A stretch of DNA of 63,758 bases, filler included, from Kipferlia bialata (Eukaryota), in NCBI GenBank assembly GCA_003568945.1. It is 5 parts of 5 records of this genome, joined end to end, with 100 filler letters (N's around TTAATTAATTAA, not from the genome) between each part and the next. Parts side by side here need not be neighbours in the genome. Positions count along the whole stretch, not along the records: positions 43,884 to 58,401 come from BDIP01000809.1; 4 more parts are not named here. One strand, 5' to 3'. The translations under genes and the position numbers were made by a program. Shown piece after piece: positions 47,941-50,900 of this stretch. The first letter of the stretch is position 1; the number at the start of each line of letters is the position of its first letter. Under the pieces are notes generated by a model. That model saw only the letters and a list, made by a program, of their open reading frames with translations. It was not told the origin of the DNA and searched no databases.

Positions 47941-50900
47941 CGCACACATTTATACTATAATTGACCTGTTGATGTCCTGAGATAAGTAGGAAAGTAAAAA
48001 AAGTTTAAAAAAAAAAACTCGCGTACCCTTCCAGCCTTCTTGTTGACAAAGTCGTGGTAGACACTGAACCTAGGCATGACTGATGAGTCCTTGGGCTGGT
48101 ACCGGCCCTTGAACTGGAGACCCTGGTATTAAGGGGGTAGAGGGGGGATAAGTAAGGGTGTGACAGAGGTATAATTATTCAGTCAGTGGGACCAAATAAA
48201 TATGAATATATATAATATGAATGTACTATGTATACATACACATATCTGTAGGTACCTGTCCCACAGGTGTGCTCTTGGGCAGCAGGTGGTATGTGCATTG
48301 AGTATATTATCACTATACATATACACAATATATATATATCATACATATGTATACATAGTATGTACCTGACCGACAGGTGTGCTCTTGGGCAGCAGGTGGG
48401 TGTTGAAGGAGAAGGCAGCGGGGACCTAAAACATGAGGGATTTGAATGTGCAACTTGGCATCTGTTCATATATTTTATTTAGACGTTGAAGGAAATAGCA
48501 TAGATGGAATGAGGTACATACATGTCTAAATGAGTTCAGTCGTCAAATCCAGCATACATATACTACTAATACCTTCTCATGTGCCCCCTGTACAAACAAG
48601 ATCTGGCCCTGTTTGTGCTCCTTGGTCCTGGTATCAGTAGTTATATATATAGATACATATAGAGTACAGATAATATTGCAAGTGGGTTAGAATTCTAGAA
48701 ACTGTAGTATTATACCCTTAGTGCTCTTGATGAAACTGATGAAAAAAGAATAGTGGTAATACGCAAAGATTTCAAAAATACATCAGAGCTTGTGTGCCTG
48801 TACTGTACATCCATACCTCCCAAATGAGATCTCCGAGACATGGACGTTGTCAATGGCCAGCCAGGCCTGGTGATAAGTAAGATGTCAGCATACCAAGACA
48901 TTCTTTAAGGCACATGACAGTGTATACCTATGCAGTGTAACATATATGAAGATAATTACTATTTACCTTCAGGGGCTCCTTGATACTCATGTCTATATGT
49001 GTATATATAGTATTGCATATATATGTATGCACTATGTATATGTACACTTCTACATATGCTTATACCTTCAGAGGCTCCTTGATGTTCTCCTGCATGTAGC
49101 CCACTCTCTCACAGGACTCAGCCGTGTAGGGGGGGTACTTGATATTACTAGGGTAAGACAGTATATATACACTATATGCATACATATGTGTATATATGTT
49201 ACTATACCGCAGGACTCAGCCGTGTAGGGGGGGTACTTGATGTTGCTGGGGGGTAAGAGAGCATGTATATACCCTATATATATACATATATATATGTGAA
49301 TTACTATACCGCAGGACTCAGCGGAATAGCGGTGGTACTTGATGTTGCTGAGGGTTGGCAAAGAGACAGTTACATTGCTGTATAAATAACACAAATGACA
49401 AAAGTATTGTGAATACGTAAGATAGTGTATGGGGTATTATCAACGAACGCCTTGTTGGGCCTGACCACATTCTCTCACTCTCTCTCTCCATATATATATA
49501 TATACTGTATATACTATGTATATATACATATCACGTACGCCTTGTTTGGTCTCACTCCTGTGACCCTCACTACGTCACCAGTCTCATAGGCCACATCGGG
49601 GTAGGGGTTGTAGTAGAAGAGCTCTACACCTGGGGGGTTAATAGTATTAATGCATATACATATGAGTATTAACTCAATGCTCATATGTATTTATATATCC
49701 TTAGTCTCGGTTGTAGTGGAAGAGCTCAACACCTAGGGGATTAATAGTATTGAGATGTGATCATTGCTAAAGAAGTATATGTATATACATATGTCCTATT
49801 GTTATAGAATACATCGTGGTTGGGGTTTTAGTAGAGGAGCTCTACACCTACAGTTAGTGTGTATGATATACGGGGAGATAGGTATACTAAAGAATATAGG
49901 TATACTACTATCCCATACACATCGGGGTTAGCATAACAGTCCACAGTAACCCACCAACACTACTACGTGATAATAGTGTCTCCAGTTATTATATAATCAT
50001 GCATCAACTCACCCGAATATGTCCTGACACACACATGGGATATGAGGTCAGACAACCAGTACTGTATCACTGCACTTGTTCTATATATAATCTATATATA
50101 CTGAATATACATATATGCATCTATAGCATACCCGATGATGTCCTGACATACACGTGTGAGATGTGGTCAGACAGGCCAGTGTTATATCGTATACCAGGTA
50201 TATCTATCCACACATATATATATATATACTGTATACTGTATATACATGTAGTGTATATATCTCACCAGATGATGTCCTGACATAGACGTGTGAGATGTGA
50301 TCAGACAGGCCAGTGTTATATCATATAATGACTATATATATGTTTACATATATATATATATATATACTGAATATGCATACATATGCATACCGGATGATGT
50401 CCTGACATACACATGTGAGATGTGGTCAGACAGGCCGTTGATGTATAACTATACACTCATCATATATACAGTATAACCTATATATGTATAGTGTATAAGC
50501 ACCCGTTACCTGATGATGTCCTGACATAGACGTGTGAGATGTGGTCAGACAGGCCAGAGGCTGTATATAACTATACACTCATTATACTAGTATACACAGT
50601 ATACACAGTATAACATGTGCATACATAGTGTATAAGCACCCACTACCTGATGATGTTCTGACATACACATGGGATATGTGGTCTGACAGGCCAGAGGCGG
50701 TGGAGTAGCTGGTCACATAGCCTGGGATATTAGTACACTAGAGGTGGGTTCAGTACAATACTATATGGTTCATAAGTATCAATAACAATATATATACATA
50801 TATATATATATATAGGTGTTGGTGGAGTAGGAGGTCCTGGAGGTGAGTTGAATAGTACTGGATTATCCACTACACTGAGTACACTAGAGAATATAGTTAC

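What the first reader, a model, noticed from the sequence alone, without database searches (positions are those of the whole stretch)
50005..50700. Intronic exon copies that differ only at synonymous sites
Seen: the real exon ends GGC CTG TCA GAC CAC ATA TCC CAT GTG TAT GTC AGA ACA TCA TCA G|gt. Four intronic partial copies encode the identical peptide GLSDHISHVYVRTSS using different codons (TCT/TCA, GAC/GAT, ATC/ATA, TCA/TCC, CAC/CAT, GTC/GTG, AGG/AGA; the last Ser appears as TCG, TCT, TCC and TCA). Each has its own different donor (gtatg, gtgag, gtatg, gtaac). Only the most distal copy has replacement changes. Neutral decay of an intronic duplicate would not favour third positions. Inference: the copies were captured from divergent functional alleles (inter-allelic template switching or unequal exchange), so introns act as an archive of allelic exon ends and hint at cryptic recombination or sex. 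Alternatively the copies are spliced, or the assembler stacked haplotypes.
Basis: partly seen in the sequence, partly recalled or inferred. Interest (0 to 1): 0.9.

Follow-up and report, generated by a model that had tools for sequence, protein, structure and literature searches.

The report
Silent exon echoes inside protist introns
In the free-living protist Kipferlia bialata, two thirds of the introns of two genes hold extra copies of the neighbouring exon ends that differ mostly at silent codon positions and, where tested, are absent from the main transcript, which likely records recombination between very different alleles and so hidden sex in a group where none has been observed.

Summary
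Confirmed, and wider than reported. The window is from Kipferlia bialata. Four intronic copies of the exon end differ from it at 25 positions, all synonymous; the fifth, most distal copy has replacements. Such echoes number 100, in 43 of 65 introns of this gene and of DNA polymerase epsilon. Differences by codon position are 29/20/144 and pN/pS is 0.10-0.17. Echo splice sites differ from the parent's but stay valid. Toy simulations: clonal sister exchange never went below pN/pS 0.53. Fast unequal exchange between divergent haplotypes reproduced the data, as did a heterozygous clonal octoploid, though no second haplotype was seen. Best reading (0.55): junction-spanning tandem duplications refreshed from other working alleles in a hyperdiverse, recombining population. 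Against: no second isolate was found, a third gene's 7 echoes show no excess, and three of five contigs have almost no echoes. I found no description in print.

The parts
50647..50721 (-). Parent exon (exon 22 of the gene A model); its 3' 46-55 nt are what the echoes copy
   Evidence: Part of a 40-exon GT-AG model giving 1150 aa without a stop.
50510..50564 (-). Donor-side echo 1 (55 nt), donor GTAACG
   Evidence: 7 synonymous, 0 replacement differences
50391..50436 (-). Donor-side echo 2 (46 nt), donor GTATGC
   Evidence: 5 synonymous, 0 replacement
50266..50313 (-). Donor-side echo 3 (48 nt), donor GTGAGA
   Evidence: 8 synonymous, 0 replacement
50132..50179 (-). Donor-side echo 4 (48 nt), donor GTATGC
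   Evidence: 6 synonymous, 0 replacement
50013..50054 (-). Donor-side echo 5, most distal and decaying, donor GTGAGT
   Evidence: H>L, Y>C, S>Y plus 3 synonymous codon changes
49811..49847 (-). Acceptor-side echo (far) of the next exon's start
   Evidence: AG kept; 4 differences, all replacements or stop
49709..49732 (-). Acceptor-side echo (near) of the next exon's start
   Evidence: AG kept; 1 synonymous, 1 replacement
49539..49629 (-). Next exon (exon 23)
   Evidence: Gene model. The RNA contig runs from exon 24 straight into this exon's 3' end (loose end).
44343..58181 (-). Gene A, partial, 40 modelled exons, Glu/Arg-rich protein of no identified family; 53 echoes in 25 of 39 introns, pN/pS 0.11
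   Evidence: Five joints in 46803-49065 match the model. No Pfam hit for 10 exons scanned; no homologue for one exon.
18793..29100 (+). Gene B, DNA polymerase epsilon catalytic subunit, N-terminal part; 47 echoes in 18 of 26 introns, pN/pS 0.16
   Evidence: P0001, named Kipferlia bialata by the sources, matches solved Pol epsilon at E 6e-150. Exons mapped; echoes.
14685..16779 (-). Gene C, protein kinase (Polo-like by recalled motifs, not searched); 7 echoes in 5 of 8 introns, no synonymous excess (3 synonymous, 5 replacement)

Best explanation
The copies are tandem duplications of an exon end plus its splice site that sit in genomic DNA and, in the neighbouring arrays tested, stay out of the main mRNA; they likely stay protein-faithful because unequal recombination keeps replacing them with exon ends from other working alleles of a very diverse, outcrossing population. 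Step 1 (inferred): a repair or template-switch event joins intron sequence to mid-exon, often at (CT)n or (AT)n, giving a unit of about 105 nt with a 30-nt exon copy. Step 2 (shown for three parent exons): the spliceosome uses the outermost donor and acceptor, so the echo is spliced out and is close to neutral. Step 3 (inferred, supported by simulation): introns change so fast that exon ends are the only homology between haplotypes, so an echo of one haplotype mispairs with the exon end of another. Crossover or conversion then adds or refreshes an echo with that allele's codons, splice site and intron start. The reverse event shortens arrays and purges damaged echoes. Turnover has to be much faster than allele coalescence (N x u of about 40 or more), with synonymous diversity near 0.15-0.2. 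Step 4 (gradient shown, cause inferred): the copy farthest from the exon is refreshed least and decays.
For: Position counts 29/20/144 over 100 echoes. pN/pS 0.096-0.174 across trims and ts/tv weights; counting each change once per array, 88 synonymous vs 53 replacement, p<=3e-16 against neutral decay and p<=8e-6 against the snapshot null. Without the finding's array the counts are 29/17/114. Within 20 nt of the splice site, 38 of 206 fourfold sites differ vs 16 of 867 non-degenerate first and second positions. Splice signals differ yet remain valid: GT in 44 of 46 and AG in 52 of 54. 34 of 46 echo donors differ from the parent at +3..+6, yet 43 of 44 keep a purine at +3 (background 0.70). A branch-point-like motif precedes 49 of 54 echo acceptors (real 56 of 65, background 0.26) while positions -16..-3 differ by 20-63%. 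Intron flanks are near background identity (0.61 vs 0.60 donor side, 0.65 vs 0.57 acceptor side), so the exon part is far better kept than the DNA beside it. Replacements: 5 of 443 sites in nearest copies vs 18 of 414 in farthest, p=0.005, with no such difference at synonymous sites (p=0.55); pN rises from 0.017 near the splice site to 0.04 beyond 20 nt. Three site pairs in the finding's array show all four gametes. Simulation with inter-haplotype exchange at theta 0.1, Nu 40 gave pS 0.176, pN 0.019 and 2.1 echoes per site. With only 10% of exchanges between haplotypes the ratio was 0.11-0.15, with pS 0.06-0.12. Observed: pS 0.16-0.22, pN 0.021-0.028, 100 echoes in 55 arrays. Context from passages of PMC8516963: metamonads lack NHEJ, all examined Fornicata lack Rad51A and have two Dmc1 paralogues, and key meiotic proteins are kept. 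Dmc1's mismatch tolerance was seen in search listings only.
Against: No other isolate was found to show that echo codons are exon alleles elsewhere (0 matches; 80 loci at 42-56% identity, none Kipferlia-like). The laid stretch shows no second haplotype in this strain, so the source is not on hand. Inter-haplotype exchange matched only at high turnover: 7 of 13 settings with such exchange gave ratios of 0.32-0.99. The matching setting gave a weaker near/far gradient (0.017 vs 0.022) than observed (0.011 vs 0.044). The model is a toy: 2 replicates, N of 120-240, no indels, no gene conversion. Gene C's 7 echoes show 3 synonymous vs 5 replacement differences, 4 of the 5 at ragged edges. Three of five contigs have 1, 0 and 2 short-range repeats vs 59 and 57. 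A predicted contrast in GC-to-AT direction between replacement and synonymous changes was absent (16:14 vs 29:23, p=1). Flank divergence does not correlate with pS (rho 0.05). Exchange has to work on 20-55 nt of imperfect homology.
Confidence: 0.55

Rival explanations
1. Same unequal exchange, but between divergent homologues inside one clonal polyploid or hybrid cell lineage, now or in the past, with no outcrossing needed.
For: Clonal simulation gave pN/pS 0.36-0.44 at ploidy 2, 0.21-0.23 at ploidy 4 and 0.10 at ploidy 8. It predicts the same valid splice sites and mosaicism.
Against: It needs within-cell synonymous heterozygosity of 0.10-0.21. One search lists no other letters in DNA or RNA contigs over 2771 nt, and two DNA contigs of 1145 and 1229 nt run unbranched through exons and introns at depth near 400. 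Contigs can drop variants, so this is not conclusive. Ploidy 2 does not reach the observed ratio.
Confidence: 0.15
2. Echoes are under direct purifying selection because they are used: swapped into the message by an unknown RNA-level template switch, or into the gene by frequent DNA-level collapse between exon and echo.
For: Replacement sites and splice signals are kept about as well as in coding DNA. Echoes make up 16% of intron bases in both genes.
Against: The one RNA contig has parent letters at every diagnostic site and uses the outermost splice sites. Echoes lack the second splice site of an exon. Their register to the parent is flat modulo 3 (34/30/36). Junction pieces have the same depth as single-copy DNA (388, 351, 360 vs 398, 406). 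In clonal simulations that include collapse into the exon, the ratio stayed at 0.53 or above in 11 of 11 settings.
Confidence: 0.13
3. Echoes were copied from paralogous genes by ectopic recombination.
For: Paralogues would also give synonymous-only differences and valid, different splice sites. One echo (57988-58032) has three conservative replacements, S>A, I>V and D>E.
Against: No contig with exon variants was laid on gene A's exons at 90% likeness. The polymerase epsilon exon query returned a single protein among 5 candidates (a weak search). Several sources per array would be needed in unrelated genes.
Confidence: 0.05
4. Assembly artefact: divergent haplotypes from a mixed culture were stacked in tandem.
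For: The finding's own array was not checked against reads, no long reads were seen, and run X1 may be the very sample the window came from.
Against: Every echo has an intron-to-mid-exon junction that a single-copy allele would not contain. No 33-mer of 49990-50725 recurs in the window, and only 4 of 706 31-mers do, so a de Bruijn path with k of 33 or more has no local branch there. X1 holds 0.91 of 568 sampled words of 46700-52400. X1 contigs carry parent exons and echoes on one record with 0 differences, and words present twice or three times have depth 727 and 1226 against about 400.
Confidence: 0.04
5. Ordinary neutral duplicates, possibly snapshots of the exon at different times, turned over by sister-chromatid exchange in a clonal lineage.
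For: 19 of 100 echoes are identical to the parent. The farthest copies do decay. Gene C shows no excess.
Against: It predicts pN/pS of about 0.5 or more; observed 0.10-0.17, p<=8e-6. Simulations gave 0.53-1.0 in 11 of 11 clonal haploid settings.
Confidence: 0.05

Closest known systems
Tandem genomic duplication across an intron-exon boundary (potato RdRp, PMC4974935, abstract seen; Rogers model and Gao and Lynch 2009 internal gene duplication, recalled, the latter seen only as a reference line in PMC3488318)
   Same: A short tandem duplication that carries a splice site and part of an exon.
   Different: Those are single events, described for creating a new intron. Here the copies lengthen an existing intron (median 289 vs 110 nt), occur in two thirds of the introns of two genes in arrays of up to 10, and carry a purifying-selection signature although the tested ones are not in the mRNA.
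Tandem exon duplication with mutually exclusive splicing (Dscam-like arrays; recalled)
   Same: Arrays of exon-like copies inside a gene with low pN/pS.
   Different: Echoes are partial, have one splice site only, and were absent from the RNA contig.
Silent cassette archives used by segmental gene conversion (Borrelia vls, trypanosome VSG, Anaplasma msp2; search listing only)
   Same: Unexpressed partial copies that exchange sequence with one expressed copy and keep coding integrity.
   Different: Those diversify surface antigens through amino-acid variation. Here the differences are silent, a host gene is DNA polymerase epsilon, and the inferred flow is mainly from exon alleles into the silent copies.
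Concerted evolution of tandem arrays by unequal crossing-over (minisatellites, rDNA; recalled)
   Same: Copy-number change, mosaic copies and decay of the terminal unit.
   Different: Only one copy works, units share just 20-55 nt of homology while their flanks are near background identity, and copies differ at about 20% of silent sites instead of being homogenised.
Introner elements (recalled)
   Same: Abundant intron-associated repeats in a protist genome.
   Different: Each echo matches only its own neighbouring exon (1 of 520 hits in non-adjacent introns); no dispersed family is involved.

Membership tests
Intron gain by tandem duplication | Duplication spans or supplies splice signals | tested here: met
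   GT in 44 of 46, AG in 52 of 54 echoes
Intron gain by tandem duplication | A new intron position is created in the mRNA | tested here: not met
   Five RNA joints skip the whole echo-bearing or plain intron between parent exons; tested on 46700-49470 only
Mutually exclusive tandem exons | Each copy is a whole exon with acceptor and donor | tested here: not met
   Copies have a median of 30 nt and are anchored at one splice site. Two acceptor echoes are followed by a GT at 38 nt, a frame-shifting length.
Mutually exclusive tandem exons | Copies appear in mature mRNA | tested here: inconclusive
   Absent from the single RNA contig; contigs drop rare forms
Silent-cassette antigenic variation | Donor copies vary at the amino-acid level | tested here: not met
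   pN/pS 0.10-0.17
Silent-cassette antigenic variation | Target is a surface antigen with one expression site | tested here: not met
   Gene B is DNA polymerase epsilon; gene A is unidentified
Silent-cassette antigenic variation | Donor-to-expressed-site conversion seen over time | not testable with these tools
   Needs serial or multi-isolate sequencing
Neutral internal duplication debris | Decay without regard to codon position | tested here: not met
   29/20/144 by position; p<=3e-16
Introner / mobile intron family | Dispersed, mutually similar intron copies in unrelated genes | tested here: not met
   Echoes match only their adjacent exon; tested within the window only
Concerted evolution by unequal crossing-over | Mosaic copies and decay at the array end | tested here: met
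   Four-gamete failures; nearest vs farthest replacements p=0.005
Concerted evolution by unequal crossing-over | Copy-number variation between individuals | not testable with these tools
   No second isolate found

The most novel reading that the evidence does not exclude
In echo-rich regions of the K. bialata genome, introns act as a running archive of exon ends sampled from other alleles, so one haploid-looking genome holds a population sample. Thousands of echoes would give synonymous diversity (about 0.2) and show outcrossing in a free-living metamonad without a second isolate. The process would be driven by Dmc1-only, NHEJ-less repair between haplotypes whose introns no longer align, and tolerated by a reduced spliceosome that ignores perfect internal splice sites.
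Probability: 0.45. Interest if true: 0.9.

Novelty: categorically new. Interest (0 to 1): 0.8.

Why it matters
Unexpressed intronic DNA with the signature of protein-level purifying selection is not expected under neutral decay or clonal turnover. [quoted passage not shown] It also shows a spliceosome with only 87 of 174 surveyed proteins (PMC6679479, passage) skipping valid internal donors and acceptors in introns of 100-900 nt, which points to exon definition (inferred). It adds a route of intron lengthening (echoes are 16% of intron bases here) and a warning for gene prediction in this genome. The molecular steps are ordinary; the pattern fails a defining feature of each known family tested except generic unequal crossing-over.

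Tried and rejected
No whole genome is held, so no genome-wide count. No run is on record as RNA. X2 is treated as RNA because its contig skips GT-AG introns and its word share (0.13) fits the exon-internal share of the model (0.11). Second isolate: degenerate exon pattern, 0 matches in metagenome contigs; polymerase epsilon search, best 80 of 432 relatives kept, all 42-56% identical. As a rough control these 80 loci have a median of 0 and a maximum of 0.37 short-range repeats per kb against about 4 per kb here, but their matches span little more than the coding length, so they are intron-poor. Gene A identity: no homologue for one 40-aa exon, no Pfam family for 10 of 40 exons. In-frame read-through: all five spacings in the finding's array are 2 modulo 3, but over 100 units the classes are 32/36/32, so chance. 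Mutation direction test: null. Flank clock: null. Literature: 9 searches found no description of this pattern. The K. bialata genome paper PMC5874029 has 0 hits for 'duplicat', 'heterozyg' and 'clonal' in its main text (section 12 read; supplements not read). The library lacks most subscription papers. Earlier scan findings: nothing on this genome or pattern.

Full report
Setting. The window is five contigs joined by N-linker blocks. The finding lies on the minus strand of 43884-58401. An exon of another contig returned P0001, labelled DNA polymerase epsilon of Kipferlia bialata, 97% identical over 81% of the query; its longest contig is 14530 nt, the length of that contig. I take the window to be K. 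bialata, a free-living fornicate with 124,912 GT-AG introns (PMC5874029, section 12). I modelled gene A by hand as 40 exons, all GT-AG, giving 1150 aa without a stop. Five of its joints were later matched exactly by an RNA contig. P0001 was threaded onto the plus strand as 27 exons.

The observation. The exon 50721-50647 is followed by five partial copies of its 3' end, each with a GT. The first four differ from it at 6, 5, 8 and 6 of 45 coding positions, all third-position and synonymous. The fifth has three replacements. With 11 distinct changes, the chance that all are synonymous is about 8e-7 under neutral decay. Three site pairs show all four gametes, so the copies are mosaic or recurrently mutated.

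It is general in two genes. An ungapped scan anchored at exon ends, blind to codon position and not requiring GT or AG, found 100 echoes: 53 in 25 of 39 introns of gene A and 47 in 18 of 26 introns of polymerase epsilon. 46 copy an exon end with its donor and lie downstream; 54 copy an acceptor with the exon start and lie upstream. The same scan against non-adjacent introns hit 1 of 520 times. Differences fall 29, 20 and 144 on codon positions 1, 2 and 3. pS is 0.16-0.22, pN 0.021-0.028, ratio 0.096-0.174; per gene 0.11 and 0.16. Counting each change once per array gives 88 synonymous and 53 replacement changes. That rejects neutral decay (p<=3e-16) and also the snapshot null, in which the exon keeps changing at silent sites after duplication (p<=8e-6). 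The result survives removal of the finding's array and a higher score cut. Echoes have a median of 30 nt in units of about 105 nt, make up 16% of intron bases, and often end in (CT)n or (AT)n.

The splice signals behave like those of other working introns. GT is kept in 44 of 46 and AG in 52 of 54 echoes. 34 of 46 donors differ from the parent at +3..+6, yet 43 of 44 keep a purine at +3. 49 of 54 acceptors have a branch-point-like motif (background 0.26) although positions -16 to -3 differ from the parent by 20-63%. Beyond the signals, flanks are at or near background identity. Replacements are four times commoner in the farthest copy of an array than in the nearest (18 of 414 vs 5 of 443, p=0.005), while synonymous differences are not.

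Limits of generality. A kinase gene on the polymerase contig has 7 echoes in 5 of 8 introns with 3 synonymous and 5 replacement differences, 4 of them at ragged outer edges: no support, small numbers. A gene-blind scan found 59 and 57 short-range repeats in the two echo-rich contigs but 1, 0 and 2 in the other three. Those three are richer in G+C, have fewer microsatellites, and two of them have about half the density of acceptor-like motifs. The phenomenon is regional.

Is it real DNA? Each echo has an intron-to-mid-exon junction that a single-copy allele lacks. No 33-mer of 49990-50725 recurs in the window. Run X1 holds 0.91 of 568 sampled words of 46700-52400. On 46700-49470, X1 record 1 (46700-47297) and record 6 (48021-49141) each carry parent exons together with their echoes, with no other letter, at depth 398 and 406. 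Unique pieces between echoes have depth 388, 351 and 360, and pieces present twice or three times have 727 and 1226. Stacked haplotypes would give fractional depth.

Is it expressed? One 1529-nt contig of X2, the same sample as X1, skips five introns with GT-AG ends and has no other letter in any exon piece. It carries the parent codons where echoes at 46902-46940, 48256-48289, 48967-48984 and 49210-49347 differ, and it joins exon 23 to the last of three acceptors. Rare forms would not show in contigs.

Mechanism. I simulated a 45-nt exon end with an array of echoes, lethal replacements in the working copy only, and unequal exchange. Clonal haploid exchange gave pN/pS 0.53-1.0 in 11 of 11 settings, because turnover and indirect purging scale together. 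Exchange between haplotypes gave 0.32-0.99 in the 7 settings with slow turnover (Nu up to 25) and 0.03-0.16 in the 6 with Nu of 40 or more. Theta 0.1 with Nu 40 gave pS 0.176, pN 0.019 and 2.1 echoes, close to the data. Clonal cells with several homologues gave 0.36-0.44 (2n), 0.21-0.23 (4n) and 0.10 (8n), but carry 10-21% synonymous heterozygosity, which one search did not show. These are toy models with two replicates, and the matching setting under-predicts the near-far gradient. So the data call for exchange among divergent working haplotypes, and outcrossing is the simplest source (0.55). Passages of PMC8516963 fit this: no NHEJ in metamonads, Rad51A lost and Dmc1 duplicated in Fornicata, meiotic proteins kept, no sexual process observed, and the relative Carpediemonas membranifera predicted haploid. 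The link to Dmc1 is inference. Two predictions failed: no contrast in GC-to-AT direction and no correlation of flank divergence with pS. No second isolate could be found.

Comparison with what is known. Single duplications across an intron-exon boundary are on record (PMC4974935, abstract), but as a route to new introns. Mutually exclusive exon arrays are whole, expressed exons (recalled). Silent cassettes of antigenic variation are the nearest functional likeness but diversify protein (listing only). Nine literature searches found no report of this pattern, and the genome paper's main text has no hit for 'duplicat'. Its supplements and subscription journals were not seen.

Verdict. Observation confirmed and extended. 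Real DNA about 0.95. Allelic capture in a recombining population 0.55. Clonal polyploid source 0.15, direct use 0.13, paralogues 0.05, neutral 0.05, artefact 0.04. The pattern appears new though built from ordinary steps. Interest 0.8.

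Noticed in passing
window 23530-23927 (+): P0001 lacks about 12 residues here against solved polymerase epsilon chains. Both copies of the exon end (about 23605-23644 and 23717-23756) begin after intron-like sequence, so the true parent exon may be missing from the assembly, or an echo may have been promoted to exon through a weak acceptor. The pair was counted as one echo (2 synonymous differences).
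   Followed up: partly
window 50816-50836 (-): A further acceptor upstream of the parent exon is followed by T-S-Y-S-T with the first Ser as TCC where the exon has AGC, a two-step synonymous switch. It is offset by 9 nt and was not picked up by the anchored scan.
   Followed up: no
window 57988-58032 (-): Echo with three conservative replacements (S>A, I>V, D>E) and one synonymous change, more like a distant working homologue than a decayed copy.
   Followed up: no
window 49208-49245 and 49310-49347 (-): Two acceptor echoes are each followed by GTATAG, making 38-nt AG-to-GT pseudo-exons; the RNA contig skips both.
   Followed up: partly
window 27837-28604 (+): Array of 10 acceptor echoes in polymerase epsilon with a higher-order repeat of two or three units, typical of unequal exchange.
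   Followed up: no
genes A and B, fourfold sites: Differences are transversion-rich, 22 transitions to 68 transversions (copies not independent), which may reflect moves among preferred codons.
   Followed up: no
window 1-14531, 29262-43783, 58502-63758: These three contigs are almost free of echoes and microsatellites and richer in G+C, suggesting two genome compartments.
   Followed up: partly
window about 25030-25056 (+): One unit of an acceptor array keeps the branch-point-like motif but has lost the AG and the first part of the exon copy, an internally deleted echo.
   Followed up: no
window 14532, 29162, 43784, 58402: N44 - 12 nt - N44 linkers join five separate contigs; distances across them mean nothing.
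   Followed up: yes
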